This document shows, one piece after another, positions 35,637 to 48,518 of a DNA stretch of 64,000 nucleotides. How positions within the stretch are numbered: the first letter of the stretch is position 1; the number at the start of each line of letters is the position of its first letter. A model generated the notes under the pieces. It ran no database searches and was not told the DNA's origin. It saw nothing but the letters and a program-made list of their open reading frames with translations. A program made the translations under genes and the position numbers. Origin of the DNA: a phage; sequence record PX092659.1. One strand, written 5' to 3'.

Positions 35637-35807
35637 ATGAAATCAGTTGTAATTATTGGTGTTAACACTCGCGGTATTCGTACTACGAAAACTGTTAAAA
35701 CTTCTAACATTGCTGAAATCACTACGAACCCTAAAAAGTTTGATTTCGCCAAAGTCTCAGCAGTTATGACAGAACAATCTTTTAACCAAGCATTGGGGAT
35801 GAAATAA
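35637..35807 (+). CDS. hypothetical small protein (56 aa, below track cutoff)
   Basis: ATG after GAGAGGAAGCGAAAT RBS; stop overlaps next start (TAATG). Confidence 0.4.
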   Translation: MKSVVIIGVNTRGIRTTKTVKTSNIAEITTNPKKFDFAKVSAVMTEQSFNQALGMK

Positions 35808-36265
35808 TGGGTGAAAATATTCTAATGACCCTTCGTGGACTGCTTAGTCTAGCACGTACTCACGGTGATAAGGAACGGGCACTTAATCTTCAGACCATGA
35901 TTGGTGATCTGCAACGTATTGATAAAGACATTGTTACTCGAACCGAGTTCGTAGCCTATCTGAAAGCTCAGATTAAGGCTCTAGAAAATGCAAAACAACG
36001 CGCTATTAAAGTTGGTACGGAAGTTCCTACCGATGTAGACTATGAGCAACTGCTTTATTCCATGCTGCAAGAGTATCAGCCAAGTCAACTTACTGAAACT
36101 GAAATTCGTGAGTATTTTGCAGAACTGGTTAAATTAAACCCAGGTATTACCAAAGCTCTATTAATGAAAACCATTAAGGCAGAATTTCCTGGACGTTATG
36201 ACGGTAAAACAACTGCTTTGATTGCTAGTGAATTTTTTAAAAATTCATTTGCTAAATGCTTATAA
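35807..36265 (+). CDS. hypothetical protein
   Basis: 152-aa track ORF. Confidence 0.5.
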   Translation: MGENILMTLRGLLSLARTHGDKERALNLQTMIGDLQRIDKDIVTRTEFVAYLKAQIKALENAKQRAIKVGTEVPTDVDYEQLLYSMLQEYQPSQLTETEIREYFAELVKLNPGITKALLMKTIKAEFPGRYDGKTTALIASEFFKNSFAKCL

Positions 36266-36277: not shown

Positions 36278-37046
36278 ATATTCATAAATTAGGGAACAGC
36301 GAGCCGATTACGCTGAACTTGTCTTAATGTAAGATGCGTCGAGCACTAAGATTCGTTGAATAGAGTCGGTGGGTTAGTTGTAAAACTAGTACACAGGGGG
36401 CGGCAATCCCGGTTAGTGGCTAGAACGTGTAAAATGAGGCGTCTGAAACCTCTCCCCTAAACTCTTCTCTAATTTATAAATAGTGGGGTGTGGAAATCAC
36501 TTATGTAGTAGCACTGCCGTCCTAGTATAATTGGTATTATCAAGCCGTAACTGGTGGAAGATGTAGGTTCGAATCTTACGGTCGGTAAGAACTGGATAAC
36601 TGATGCTTTTAACGTAAAAGCTTCCGAGGTTAGTTGCGCACTGCCTAAACCACGCGGTAGTTGGTTCCAGGCTAACCAACCAGTCTGCTGAATAGTTTTA
36701 TTACGATTTAACTATGTCCAGACTAAAGAAGAACTTTAGAAGGTATTCTAGGATAGTGAAGTTCTTTCTCCATATCGGAGTAGTTTTTCAAGCTATCCAC
36801 AAAGTGGGAAATGCTGACATGAGAGATGTCACTAATGGTGCACAATAGCACAGGTAATTCGCGATAACTCCTGTTGAGTAGCAGCAAAAGGCGGGAAGTC
36901 ATGACCCCAAGCCTAACCGAGTCCTCAATATACCGCAGGACATAACCACTAAGTCACCCTGACTTAAACTGGAAAATAATAGACGTTACTGTATTTTGTC
37001 TTGAAATACTTAATGAGTGAGACTTATGACTCTCCCGGTATCGTCT

Positions 37047-41578: not shown

Positions 41579-41655
41579 GGGGGTGTAATCGAATTGGCAT
41601 AGGTACTGGACTTAAAATTCAGGTTTTGTGGGTTCGAATCCCACCACCCCTACCA
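41579..41655 (+). tRNA. tRNA with TAA anticodon (Leu-type anticodon) but short variable arm
   Basis: Acceptor GGGGGTG/CACCCCT, anticodon stem CTGGA/TTCAG with loop CTTAAAA, 5-nt variable region, T-arm GTGGG-TTCGAAT-CCCAC, A73-CCA. Confidence 0.6.
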
Positions 41656-43297: not shown

Positions 43298-43373
43298 CGA
43301 CCGTTGGCTGAATGGCTTAGGCGAAGGATTGCAAATCCTTTTTATGTGAGTTCAAATCTCATGCGGTCGTCCA
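43298..43373 (+). tRNA. tRNA-Cys (anticodon GCA)
   Basis: Acceptor CGACCGT/GCGGTCG, anticodon stem AAGGA/TCCTT with loop TTGCAAA, T-arm GTGAG-TTCAAAT-CTCAT. Confidence 0.7.
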
Positions 43374-43380
43374 AATTTTA

Positions 43381-43463
43381 GGGTCGTTAGCCAAGCGGTT
43401 TGGCGGCGGATTGTTAATCCGTGTCGAAAGACAACGTAGGTTCGAATCCTACACGGCCCGCCA
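43381..43463 (+). tRNA. class II-shaped tRNA with GTT (Asn-type) anticodon and G73
   Basis: Acceptor GGGTCGT/ACGGCCC, D-stem GCCA/TGGC, anticodon stem GCGGA/TCCGT with loop TTGTTAA, 13-nt variable arm with GTC/GAC stem, T-arm GTAGG-TTCGAAT-CCTAC. Confidence 0.55.
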
Positions 43464-43565
43464 AATTCTGTGTAGAGTTAAGTAAACCGGTAGCCAACCA
43501 GCTATCATTGCTGACATCGAATTCAGCCACAGATACCATTTTCATTAATAACTGAGGAAACAAGC

Positions 43566-45471: not shown

Positions 45472-45550
45472 AGATCGCTAGCTCAATAGGTTTAGTAGCA
45501 TCCGACTTTTAATCGGAAGGTTCTGGGTTCGAGTCCCAGGCGATCTACCA
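45472..45550 (+). tRNA. tRNA-Lys (anticodon TTT)
   Basis: Perfect acceptor AGATCGC/GCGATCT, anticodon stem TCCGA/TCGGA with loop CTTTTAA, T-arm CTGGG-TTCGAGT-CCCAG. Confidence 0.8.
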
Positions 45551-45915: not shown

Positions 45916-45992
45916 GCGTGATTGATGGAATTGGCATACATACCGTCCTTAGAAGTCGGGTTTTGAGGGTTCGAATCCCTTGTCACGCACCA
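45916..45992 (+). tRNA. tRNA with TAG anticodon (Leu-type anticodon) but short variable arm
   Basis: Acceptor GCGTGAT/GTCACGC, anticodon loop CTTAGAA on stem CCGTC/GTCGG (one mismatch), 5-nt variable region, T-arm GAGGG-TTCGAAT-CCCTT, A73. Confidence 0.55.
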
Positions 45993-48443: not shown

Positions 48444-48518
48444 GCTCCTAAAGCATTGCTGGCGATGCAGTTGCCTTGTAAGCATCTGAACCGGGTTCGA
48501 TTCCTGGTGGGAGCACCA
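48444..48518 (+). tRNA. tRNA-Thr (anticodon TGT)
   Basis: Acceptor GCTCCTA/TGGGAGC, D-arm GCATTGCTGGCGATGC, anticodon loop CTTGTAA, T-arm CCGGG-TTCGATT-CCTGG. Confidence 0.75.

What the first reader, a model, noticed from the sequence alone, without database searches (positions are those of the whole stretch)
43381..43463. Long-variable-arm (class II-like) tRNA carrying an Asn-type GUU anticodon
Manual folding gives a clean cloverleaf (acceptor GGGTCGT/ACGGCCC, D-stem GCCA/TGGC, anticodon stem GCGGA/TCCGT, loop TTGTTAA) with a 13-nt variable arm (GTC/GAC stem) and G73. In bacteria long arms are restricted to Leu, Ser and Tyr tRNAs. A Ser/Tyr-like body with GUU could be a recoding or mis-acylated tRNA, or a Tyr-derived (GUA to GUU) duplicate.
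Basis: partly seen in the sequence, partly recalled or inferred. Interest (0 to 1): 0.55.

Follow-up and report, generated by a model that had tools for sequence, protein, structure and literature searches.

The report
Phage asparagine tRNA with extra arm
This T5-like phage carries a real asparagine tRNA built on the long-extra-arm body plan that bacteria normally use only for leucine, serine and tyrosine tRNAs; the same odd design recurs in many unrelated phages but almost never in bacterial genomes, and I found no paper that describes it.

Summary
ARAGORN, Rfam and RNAfold all give an 83-nt tRNA at 43381-43463 (+) with anticodon GUU, G73, encoded CCA and a 13-nt variable arm (GUC/GAC stem, GAAA loop, AAC tail).

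It is not a one-off. Long-arm tRNA-Asn(GUU) genes occur in Demerecviridae, Straboviridae, Marfavirus, Phapecoctavirus and Phikzvirus, and in at least 120 IMG/VR contigs. That is about 12% of phage tRNA-Asn copies with this anticodon arm, and 23% of those inside tRNA arrays. In 185,579 bacterial and archaeal species genomes the same pattern hits only 38 places, mostly in large tRNA arrays.

The arm's stem covaries strongly. The family keeps the asparagine identity set: GUU, G73 in 97%, U1-A72 in 64%. The arm geometry is tyrosine-like, not serine-like. Recoding or mischarging is therefore unlikely.

T5 itself carries a different, short-arm tRNA-Asn at the same locus, next to a homing endonuclease.

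Best reading: a working Asn tRNA of a phage-borne class II lineage. The arm is probably kept because it changes the tRNA's shape for host tRNA-cutting defence nucleases while AsnRS is indifferent to it. That last step is inferred, not shown.

The parts
43381..43463 (+). Whole tRNA-Asn(GUU) gene, 83 nt, class II-like, with CCA encoded
   Evidence: ARAGORN; Rfam tRNA 58.4 bits; the minimum-energy fold is a cloverleaf
43381..43387 (+). Acceptor stem 5' strand GGGTCGT (G1-C72, G2-C71, one T4-G69 wobble)
43390..43404 (+). D arm: 4-bp stem GCCA/TGGC with 7-nt loop AGCGGTT
43406..43422 (+). Anticodon arm GCGGA-TTGTTAA-TCCGT. It matches E. coli asnT except C32->U and keeps the paired CNG motif (C28-G42)
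   Evidence: motif as defined in PMC12445682
43413..43415 (+). Anticodon GTT (reads AAC/AAU)
   Evidence: ARAGORN places the anticodon at tRNA position 33
43423..43435 (+). Variable arm: stem GTC/GAC (43423-25 / 43430-32), GAAA tetraloop (43426-29), unpaired 3' tail AAC (43433-35)
   Evidence: Fold. In the family the equivalent stem pairs are 97-100% paired, with 3-5 pair types each
43436..43452 (+). T arm GTAGG-TTCGAAT-CCTAC
43453..43459 (+). Acceptor stem 3' strand ACGGCCC
43460..43460 (+). Discriminator G73, an AsnRS determinant and a TyrRS/LeuRS antideterminant
   Evidence: G73 in 111 of 114 family members; identity rules from PMC9976931
43461..43463 (+). Encoded 3' CCA
43298..43373 (+). 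Context: tRNA-Cys(GCA), 7 nt upstream, probably co-transcribed (inferred). The Cys-Asn spacer is where T5 carries a homing-endonuclease ORF

Best explanation
The feature is a functional phage tRNA that inserts asparagine at AAC/AAU codons. It has class II architecture: a helical variable arm of 3 bp plus a GAAA loop and a 3-nt tail.

It belongs to a large lineage of long-arm tRNA-Asn(GUU) genes carried by phages and mobile elements.

How charging works: bacterial AsnRS reads only the three anticodon bases and G73, so the extra arm does not affect aminoacylation. In hosts without AsnRS, the route is the non-discriminating AspRS plus GatCAB, which needs U1-A72. EF-Tu and the ribosome already handle class II tRNAs.

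The arm is maintained by selection. The reason I think most likely is that it changes the tRNA's shape right at the top of the anticodon stem. Host immune tRNases that cut the anticodon stem of host tRNA-Asn would then fail to dock or cut. Known examples are PARIS AriB at 40|41 and P2-OLD at the paired CNG motif.

T5 and BF23 solve the same problem differently. They carry a class I tRNA-Asn with a scrambled anticodon stem, brought in together with a homing endonuclease.

What is shown and what is inferred:
- Shown: the structure, its distribution, the covariation, the identity elements and the allelic replacement.
- Inferred: expression, charging with Asn, and the anti-nuclease role of the arm.

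My probability for each step: real tRNA 0.97; Asn identity 0.8; arm under selection 0.85; anti-nuclease role about 0.35.
For: Structure.

Distribution:
- 526 phage records hold a match covering at least 80% of the tRNA. They span Demerecviridae, Straboviridae (Jiaodavirus), Marfavirus, Phapecoctavirus and Phikzvirus.
- The same pattern hits 38 stretches in 185,579 species genomes. Seventeen of these are called as long tRNA-Asn, and 11 of the 17 lie inside arrays of 7-36 tRNAs.
- In a sample not biased by arm length, 14 of 120 matches are long. Within arrays of 5 or more tRNAs it is 11 of 48.

Selection on the arm:
- The three core stem pairs are 100%, 100% and 97% paired, with 21, 20 and 8 double-sided changes. 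No shuffle out of 500 reaches the observed score. Shifting the pairing register drops pairing to 31-42%.
- The loop is GNRA in 72 of 114 members.
- The same phages readily lose the arm from tRNA-Leu, so keeping it on Asn is not forced.

Asn identity:
- The anticodon arm matches E. coli asnT at 16 of 17 positions.
- The family has G73 in 97% and U1-A72 in 64%, like short phage tRNA-Asn (93% and 75%). Tyr has A73 in 100% and G1-C72 in 88%. Ser has U1-A72 in under 1%.
- Identity rules are taken from PMC9976931.

Defence context:
- E. coli tRNA-Asn(GUU) is cut by AriB (PMC12409363) and by P2-OLD (PMC12445682).
- The two Tequintavirus long alleles differ only at C28U/G42A and at position 32. The first is exactly the change in OLD's CNG motif.
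- T5 has a different class I allele at the same locus, within identical flanks, next to a GIY-YIG ORF.
Against: - There is no direct evidence that the long-arm tRNA is expressed, charged with Asn, or nuclease-resistant.
- The published PARIS rescue used T5's short allele, not this type.
- Long-arm tRNA-Asn from SP15 did not rescue phages from PrrC170.
- In the PARIS study Bas34's own tRNA-Asn did not suffice. I could not determine which allele Bas34 carries.
- The window's allele keeps the host cleavage-site sequence (U36AAUC|C41, C28-G42). If the arm does not protect it, it should be cleavable.
- C28-G42 is equally common in long and short phage copies, 80% against 76%.
- The G1-C72, G2-C71, G73 and long-arm combination in the T5-type copy overlaps nominal SerRS features.
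- The literature check covers only open-access full text.
Confidence: 0.45

Rival explanations
1. The tRNA works as in the best explanation (an Asn-inserting tRNA), but the variable arm has no function of its own. It is baggage inherited from a class II ancestor, a Tyr- or Ser-type tRNA whose anticodon and discriminator switched to Asn identity. The arm is kept only because the class II core needs it to fold.
For: - Asn identity needs only GUU and G73 and can be transplanted into another tRNA (PMC9976931). GUA->GUU or GCU->GUU is a single base change.
- Long-Asn D arms resemble class II tRNAs. Their nearest neighbours are long-arm tRNAs in 43% of cases, against 5% for short Asn.
- The arm geometry is Tyr-like.
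- The window copy is marginally closest to tRNA-Tyr, at 67% identity.
- Pairing in the arm would be conserved by folding constraints alone.
Against: - The arm has persisted across at least 6 very different body types and several phage families, with a conserved GNRA loop.
- About a third of phage tRNA-Leu in the same loci have lost the arm while keeping a class II D arm, so loss is feasible.
- The design is strongly enriched in phages over cellular genomes.
- The acceptor ends are Asn-type, so any conversion is old and has since been refined.
Confidence: 0.3
2. The arm is a handle or a shield for some other tRNA-binding factor rather than for immune nucleases. For example, it could remove the class I loop where G46 sits, steer processing of the tRNA-Cys/tRNA-Asn dimer, or bind a phage-encoded protein.
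For: - The GNRA loop is conserved in 63% of long-arm tRNA-Asn, against 6% of phage tRNA-Tyr, which could mark a contact site.
- A class II arm removes the 5-nt loop where host tRNA-Asn has G46 (asnT ATGTC).
- T5-like genomes encode a small protein annotated 'tRNA amidotransferase', with a sub-threshold YqeY match.
Against: - No partner protein is shared by the unrelated phage families that carry the tRNA.
- GNRA loops are also common in phage Ser (51%) and Leu (42%) arms, so the loop may only stabilise a short stem.
- The YqeY match is below the Pfam cut-off.
Confidence: 0.08
3. Dual identity or recoding: SerRS (or TyrRS) also charges this tRNA, so some AAC/AAU codons are read as Ser (or Tyr) during infection.
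For: - The T5-type copy has G1-C72, G2-C71, G73, C11-G24 and a long arm, all nominal E. coli tRNA-Ser features (PMC9976931).
- From my own recollection of Himeno et al. 1990 (NAR 18:6815, which I could not open), small insertions in the tRNA-Tyr arm plus G73 give serine acceptance.
Against: - The arm is shorter than in Ser (median 15 against 18 nt; 3-4 bp against 5-7 bp). Its 3' tail is 3-4 nt against 1 nt in Ser.
- 64% of the family has U1-A72, and only 39% has G2-C71 against 92% in Ser.
- A73, which TyrRS needs, is never present; G73 is a TyrRS antideterminant.
- Proteome-wide Asn->Ser substitution would be costly, and nothing in the window suggests an altered code.
Confidence: 0.07
4. It is a non-decoding decoy. 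The tRNA displays a tRNA-Tyr-like variable arm (GUC/GAC stem) to soak up nucleases that cut the tRNA-Tyr variable arm (Septu/retron-Eco7 PtuAB). Alternatively it titrates nucleases directed at tRNA-Asn.
For: [quoted passage not shown]
- The window's arm stem has the same sequence as that of E. coli tyrU.
- The PARIS authors raise competition by phage tRNAs as a possibility.
Against: - In most family members the stem sequence differs from Tyr.
- A full set of translation identity elements and an encoded CCA are conserved, which a decoy would not need.
- It is the phage's only tRNA-Asn.
Confidence: 0.05

Closest known systems
Canonical bacterial tRNA-Asn(GUU), e.g. E. coli asnT (class I)
   Same: The anticodon arm matches at 16 of 17 positions. 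Both have G26, G73 and CCA. The AsnRS determinants are the same (PMC9976931).
   Different: asnT has a 5-nt variable loop (ATGTC); this tRNA has a 13-nt helical arm. The acceptor stem differs (G1-C72 here, U1-A72 in asnT), as does the D arm. Overall identity is 62%.
Phage T5 tRNA-Asn (T5t17), the variant shown to help neutralise PARIS
   Same: Same locus, between tRNA-Cys and the same downstream flank. Same anticodon, G73 and CCA.
   Different: The T5 copy is 78 nt and class I, with a mismatched anticodon stem, and a GIY-YIG/T5orf172 ORF directly abuts it. It is found in 152 phage records, against 526 for the long type. The published experiments used this allele, not the long one.
Bacterial class II tRNA-Tyr
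   Same: The variable arm is 13-15 nt with a 3-bp stem and a 3-nt 3' tail. The T5-type copy has the same GUC/GAC stem. Anticodon positions G34 and U35 are shared.
   Different: This tRNA has U36 instead of A36 and G73 instead of A73. The family's 1-72 pair is mostly U-A, against G-C in Tyr. GNRA loops are 63% here against 6% in Tyr.
Bacterial tRNA-Ser
   Same: Both have a long arm, G73 and frequent GNRA loops. Many long-Asn D arms are nearest to Ser D arms.
   Different: The Ser arm is longer (median 18 nt, 5-7 bp) with a 1-nt 3' tail. G1-C72 and G2-C71 are nearly fixed in Ser but not in this family.
[quoted passage not shown]
   Same: These are class II-shaped tRNAs whose anticodons are not Leu, Ser or Tyr. 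Some sit in phage tRNA clusters.
   Different: Those tRNAs are charged according to their body (Leu or Ser), so they mis-translate or suppress. Many also have 8/4 or 9/3 acceptor/T geometry. This tRNA has standard 7/5 geometry and a full Asn identity set, so anticodon and identity agree.

Membership tests
tRNA (Rfam RF00005) | Cloverleaf scoring above the family's gathering threshold | tested here: met
   58.4 bits against a gathering score of 29, with the full model 1-71 matched; ARAGORN call; the minimum-energy fold is a cloverleaf
Bacterial tRNA-Asn (AsnRS substrate) | Anticodon G34-U35-U36 | tested here: met
   GTT at 43413-15; determinant as given in PMC9976931
Bacterial tRNA-Asn (AsnRS substrate) | Discriminator G73 | tested here: met
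   G at 43460; 111 of 114 family members
Bacterial tRNA-Asn (AsnRS substrate) | Class I body with a 4-5-nt variable loop (a textbook regularity, not a known AsnRS determinant) | tested here: not met
   13-nt variable arm with a 3-bp stem
Bacterial tRNA-Asn (AsnRS substrate) | Actual aminoacylation with Asn | not testable with these tools
   Needs in vitro charging or analysis of the amino acid attached to the tRNA
tRNA-Asn for the GatCAB (indirect) pathway | U1-A72 base pair | tested here: not met
   The window copy has G1-C72, which is acceptable because its enterobacterial hosts have AsnRS. 64% of the family has U1-A72; rule from PMC9976931
Class II tRNA architecture | Variable region of at least 10 nt that forms a stem-loop | tested here: met
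   13 nt, GUC/GAC stem plus GAAA loop; covariation across the family
Bacterial tRNA-Tyr | A73 and anticodon GUA | tested here: not met
   G73 and GUU; all 75 Tyr tRNAs in the data set have A73
Bacterial tRNA-Ser | Long arm of Ser type (about 5-7 bp, about 1 unpaired nt on the 3' side) | tested here: not met
   3 bp and a 3-nt tail here. Ser in the same data set has a median arm of 18 nt and a 1-nt tail in 76 of 128
Bacterial tRNA-Ser | G1-C72, G2-C71 and G73 | tested here: met
   All present in the window copy, but not conserved in the family: G2-C71 39%, U1-A72 64%
Phage long-arm tRNA-Asn lineage (defined in this report) | GUU anticodon, G73, 7/5 acceptor/T geometry, and an arm of 3-5 bp with a mostly GNRA tetraloop and a 3-4-nt 3' tail | tested here: met
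   The window copy has all of these features. It is 100% identical to copies in Salmonella phages GEC_vB_N3, VSe12 and HMD-P4
Nuclease-resistant phage tRNA (as T5 tRNA-Lys against AriB) | Demonstrated resistance to a defence tRNase | not testable with these tools
   Published tests used other tRNAs or alleles
allo-tRNA / 8/4 tRNAs | 8/4 or 9/3 acceptor/T-stem geometry | tested here: not met
   7-bp acceptor stem and 5-bp T stem

The most novel reading that the evidence does not exclude
Phages remodel tRNA architecture as an immune-evasion strategy. Adding a GNRA-capped variable arm to tRNA-Asn keeps the synthetase identity elements intact. At the same time the tRNA becomes unrecognisable to host Toprim-type and other tRNases that attack the anticodon stem. 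The same may apply, less often, to Ile(UAU), Cys, Trp and Thr(UGU), and to removing the arm from tRNA-Leu. This would be a second, structural route to nuclease-proof tRNAs, alongside the known anticodon-arm point mutations.
Probability: 0.3. Interest if true: 0.85.

Novelty: new variant of a known kind. Interest (0 to 1): 0.62.

Why it matters
Textbooks and current reviews state that in bacteria only Leu, Ser and Tyr tRNAs (plus Sec) have a long variable arm. Here a fourth isoacceptor, Asn, has that architecture in hundreds of sequenced phages from unrelated families. The arm is clearly maintained by selection, yet the genes are annotated simply as 'tRNA-Asn'.

Host tRNA-Asn is now known to be a target of PARIS AriB and P2-OLD. 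T5-like phages are naturally polymorphic at one locus: a long-arm allele, a long-arm allele with the C28U/G42A change, and a short allele with a scrambled stem. That gives a ready-made experimental system for asking how tRNA shape, rather than anticodon-loop sequence, governs recognition by immune nucleases.

It is also practically useful. A class II tRNA that AsnRS may still charge is a candidate scaffold for engineering orthogonal or nuclease-proof tRNAs. Annotation pipelines should flag these genes as a distinct class.

Tried and rejected
- **blastn against 5,426 E. coli genomes** found nothing. This is uninformative, because an 83-nt query has too little power in 28 Gb. I fetched asnT and tyrU directly instead.
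- **Home-made isotype HMMs** as a stand-in for tRNAscan-SE isotype scoring gave no usable discrimination. Short Asn scored only on the T arm. I discarded the result.
- **Levitt-pair (15-48) tally:** only about 50% canonical, similar to Tyr. Numbering is unreliable in some sequences, so I did not use it.
- **Comparing C28-G42 frequency in long and short copies:** no difference, and both sets were pre-selected by the search motif.
- **Identifying Bas34's tRNA-Asn allele**, to reinterpret the PARIS rescue data, failed. MZ501076 is Bas28 and MZ501073 is an unrelated Bas58. The PARIS paper's supplement is not held.
- **Chromosomal cases:**
  - The Azoarcus locus L165 is a normal tRNA-Asn with an 11-nt tandem duplication.
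  - The Saprospiraceae hits are uncalled repeat fragments next to normal 75-nt genes.
  - These were rejected as family members.
- **'Recent duplicate of the phage's own tRNA-Tyr'** was rejected: identity is 67%.
- **Six full-text literature searches** for a description of class II tRNA-Asn in phages found none. Text searches within PMC10264068, PMC12409363 and PMC5389517 also found no description of it.
- **Himeno 1990** could not be opened.

Full report
**1. Observation**

The window comes from a T5-like phage (Demerecviridae). A 2-kb stretch around the finding matches 479 phage records at 80-99% identity, mostly Salmonella and Escherichia phages. The window carries 24 tRNA genes.

At 43381-43463 (+), ARAGORN calls an 83-nt tRNA-Asn with anticodon GTT. 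Rfam's tRNA model matches from end to end at 58.4 bits, E=9.8e-11. The energy is -33.9 kcal/mol, z=-3.1 against shuffles.

All the listed stems, the TTGTTAA loop, the 13-nt variable region, G73 and an encoded CCA are present. It is the only tRNA-Asn in the window.

**2. It is not a peculiarity of this phage**

A blastn search with the 83 nt alone finds 526 phage records in which the match covers at least 80% of the query. I fetched examples and re-ran ARAGORN. Genes of 83-87 nt with anticodon GUU are present in:
- Novosibvirus PM135, Priunavirus PR1 and Epseptimavirus SuperGirl (all Demerecviridae)
- Jiaodavirus KPV15 (Straboviridae)
- Marfavirus Potts1
- Phapecoctavirus ESCO13
- two Phikzvirus jumbo phages of Pseudomonas

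I then scanned with the pattern GGACTGTTAATCC-N{14,26}-GGTTCRA, whose gap excludes a normal 5-nt variable loop.
- It hit only 38 stretches in one genome each of 185,579 bacterial and archaeal species, 596 Gb in all.
- Of those 38, ARAGORN calls a long tRNA-Asn in 17. Eleven of the 17 sit in arrays of 7-36 tRNA genes, in Micromonospora/Verrucosispora, Agromyces and several metagenome-assembled genomes. Such arrays are typical of mobile elements.
- The Saprospiraceae hits are uncalled fragments beside normal genes. One Azoarcus case is a normal tRNA-Asn with an 11-nt duplication.

Widening the gap to N{5,26} gives a sample that is not biased by arm length. Of the first 120 viral matches, 14 are long (12%). 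Among loci with at least 5 tRNAs, 11 of 48 are long (23%).

Two caveats apply. The pattern fixes the commonest anticodon-arm sequence. IMG/VR also contains host tRNA-Asn genes at prophage ends.

**3. The arm is a conserved structure**

The loci yielded 114 distinct long-arm sequences with very diverse acceptor stems and D arms. I made an ungapped alignment of the 33 sequences that have a 15-nt variable region.
- The three core pairs of the arm stem are 100%, 100% and 97% paired.
- They use 3-5 different pair types each, with 21, 20 and 8 double-sided changes.
- No shuffle out of 500 reaches the observed covariation score.
- Shifting the pairing register drops pairing to 31-42%.

The arm is typically 3-4 bp. 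The loop is GNRA in 72 of 114, mostly GAAA. A tail of 3-4 unpaired nucleotides follows.

**4. Which amino acid?**

Bacterial Asn identity rests on the three anticodon bases and G73, and it can be transplanted into another tRNA. GatCAB additionally needs U1-A72. G73 is an antideterminant for TyrRS and LeuRS. Serine identity relies on the arm together with G1-C72 and G2-C71 (PMC9976931).

The window tRNA has G34, U35, U36 and G73. Its anticodon arm matches E. coli asnT at 16 of 17 positions; the only change is C32->U.

Identity features across the data set:

| tRNA group | Discriminator base 73 | 1-72 pair | Arm, median length | 3' tail |
|---|---|---|---|---|
| Long-arm Asn | G, 97% | U-A, 64% | 15 nt | 3-4 nt |
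| Short phage Asn | G, 93% | U-A, 75% | short loop (≤6 nt) | not applicable |
| Tyr | A, 100% | G-C, 88% | 14 nt | 3 nt |
| Ser | G, 65% | G-C, 87%; U-A <1% | 18 nt (5-7 bp) | 1 nt |
| Leu (long) | A, 98% (all Leu) | G-C 45%, G-U 41% (all Leu) | 13 nt | 2 nt |

G2-C71 occurs in 39% of long-arm Asn, against 92% of Ser.

So the anticodon end and the acceptor end both say Asn, and the arm is not the kind SerRS prefers. Recoding or mischarging is unlikely, though not excluded for the G1-C72/G2-C71 T5-type copy.

I could not run tRNAscan-SE isotype models. A home-made HMM surrogate was uninformative.

**5. Relationship to T5 and origin**

T5 itself (NC_005859) has a different tRNA-Asn at this position:
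- It is 78 nt and class I, with a mismatched anticodon stem.
- Its annotation notes that changing the anticodon does not make it an amber suppressor.

An alignment shows that tRNA-Cys and the downstream flank are nearly identical in the window, T5, Bas32 and Bas33. The interval between them differs:
- the window has a 7-nt spacer and then the long tRNA
- Bas32 and Bas33 have a ~150-nt insert and then long tRNAs of 83 and 86 nt
- T5 has a ~520-nt GIY-YIG/T5orf172 ORF and then the short tRNA

The T5 short allele is in 152 phage records. The long types are in several hundred. This is cassette replacement at a single locus. It fits what is known of homing endonucleases that cut phage tRNA-Asn genes (PMC2330249).

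The window's gene is 67% identical to the window's own tRNA-Tyr and 62% to asnT, against a background of 55-62%. It is therefore not a recent duplicate of anything present here.

Long-Asn D arms are often class II-like. Their nearest neighbour is a long-arm tRNA in 43% of cases, against 5% for short Asn. They fall into several body types, so a single ancient origin and repeated conversion cannot be told apart.

**6. What the arm is for (inference)**

Host tRNA-Asn(GUU) is a recurrent target of defence nucleases that cut the anticodon stem.
- PARIS AriB cuts between positions 40 and 41 (PMC12409363).
- P2-OLD cuts after the C of a paired CNG motif on both strands, and tRNA-Asn is among its substrates (PMC12445682).

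Phage tRNAs are known to escape such nucleases through substitutions in the anticodon arm. For Asn, the anticodon and much of the loop are locked by identity and modification requirements.

The long-arm family keeps a host-like anticodon arm and instead adds a helix that emerges 3-4 nt from those cleavage sites. The two Tequintavirus long alleles differ only at C28U/G42A and at position 32. The first is exactly the OLD-motif change tested in PMC12445682. This shows that the arm-bearing tRNA is also under this kind of pressure.

The same phages have removed the arm from tRNA-Leu. Both Leu genes in the window are 77 nt, and about a third of phage Leu tRNAs are short. Arm loss is therefore feasible, and keeping the arm on Asn is unlikely to be mere inertia.

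I therefore favour a shape-based evasion role, but only at about 0.35. Reasons for caution:
- No experiment has used the long allele in a nuclease assay.
- The PARIS rescue used T5's short allele.
- SP15's long tRNA-Asn did not rescue from PrrC170.
- Bas34's own tRNA-Asn did not suffice against PARIS, and I could not establish which allele it carries.

The main rival is that the arm is inherited scaffold with no function of its own.

**7. Novelty and verdict**

The gene is annotated as tRNA-Asn in hundreds of records, so the gene itself is known. I found no paper that notes its class II architecture or its spread. This covers six full-text searches and text searches within the main phage-tRNA and unusual-tRNA papers. 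Closed-access literature was not searchable.

The nearest known categories are non-canonical tRNAs with long variable arms: nematode nev-tRNAs and bacterial or phage allo-tRNAs. In those, the body dictates an amino acid that conflicts with the anticodon. Here body and anticodon agree on Asn apart from the arm.

I rate it a new variant of a known kind, with interest 0.62.

Noticed in passing
window 41579-41655 and 45916-45992: Both tRNA-Leu genes (UAA and UAG) are 77 nt with 5-nt variable loops, yet keep a class II-type D arm (3-bp stem, 11-nt loop) and A73. They are Leu tRNAs without the long arm, the mirror image of the Asn case. T5's own tRNA-Leu(UAG) still has the arm. About a third of Leu tRNAs in the phage loci are short.
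   Followed up: partly
L020 4406-4492 (T5-like IMG/VR contig); also L110, L187, L270: Some phages, including a T5-like one, carry an 82-87-nt tRNA-Thr(UGU) with a stem-loop variable arm. Thr(UGU) is the prime target of P2-OLD and a major target of AriB. The window's own Thr(UGU) at 48444-48518 is short.
   Followed up: partly
viral loci L026, L029, L030, L054, L116, L179, L190, L230; MAG locus L141: tRNA-Ile(UAU) in phage tRNA arrays often has a 21-27-nt variable region whose loop carries a conserved CAGAT(A/T) motif (9 of 21 by a strict test). This looks like a second recurrent non-canonical long-arm tRNA family.
   Followed up: no
viral loci, e.g. L013, L050-L052 (Cys), L022, L122 (Trp), L191 (His), L025 (Phe); L131 and L141 (Lys-UUU): GNRA-capped variable arms also occur at low frequency in phage tRNA-Cys (10%), Trp (7%), Glu, Gln, His, Phe, Gly and Lys(UUU).
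   Followed up: partly
window 43374-43380, compared with T5 (L275 10007-10525) and with L276/L277: The spacer between tRNA-Cys and tRNA-Asn is 7 nt in the window and ~150 nt in Bas32 and Bas33. In T5 it is a ~520-nt GIY-YIG/T5orf172 homing-endonuclease ORF that overlaps the 5' end of the short tRNA-Asn.
   Followed up: yes
window ~43466-43540: The sequence directly 3' of tRNA-Asn is identical to the T5 region annotated 'rna3, putative tRNA-like RNA'. ARAGORN and Rfam do not call it.
   Followed up: no
window 35807-36265 (+): This 152-aa ORF lies close to tRNA-Arg, much as T5.081 ('tRNA amidotransferase') does in T5. Its homology to T5.081 was not checked. It gives only a sub-threshold YqeY-like match (PF09424, 20.8 bits against a 27-bit cut-off).
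   Followed up: partly
window 36516-36587 (+): Rfam reports a weak extra tRNA-like match (30.7 bits) that ARAGORN does not call. It may correspond to T5's 'rnaX' region, where ARAGORN calls an odd tRNA-Ser(ACT); this correspondence was not checked by alignment.
   Followed up: no
window 45472-45550: The window's tRNA-Lys(UUU) is 79 nt and is a different allele from T5's PARIS-resistant tRNA-Lys. Its anticodon arm is TCCGA-CTTTTAA-TCGGA, so positions 36-41 read UAAUCG. The T5 sequence differs throughout.
   Followed up: no
L132, L133, L137, L162 (Micromonospora / Verrucosispora chromosomes): Arrays of 23-36 tRNA genes packed into 5-6 kb of actinobacterial chromosomes include a 89-90-nt long-arm tRNA-Asn. 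These are probably integrated mobile-element tRNA arrays.
   Followed up: partly
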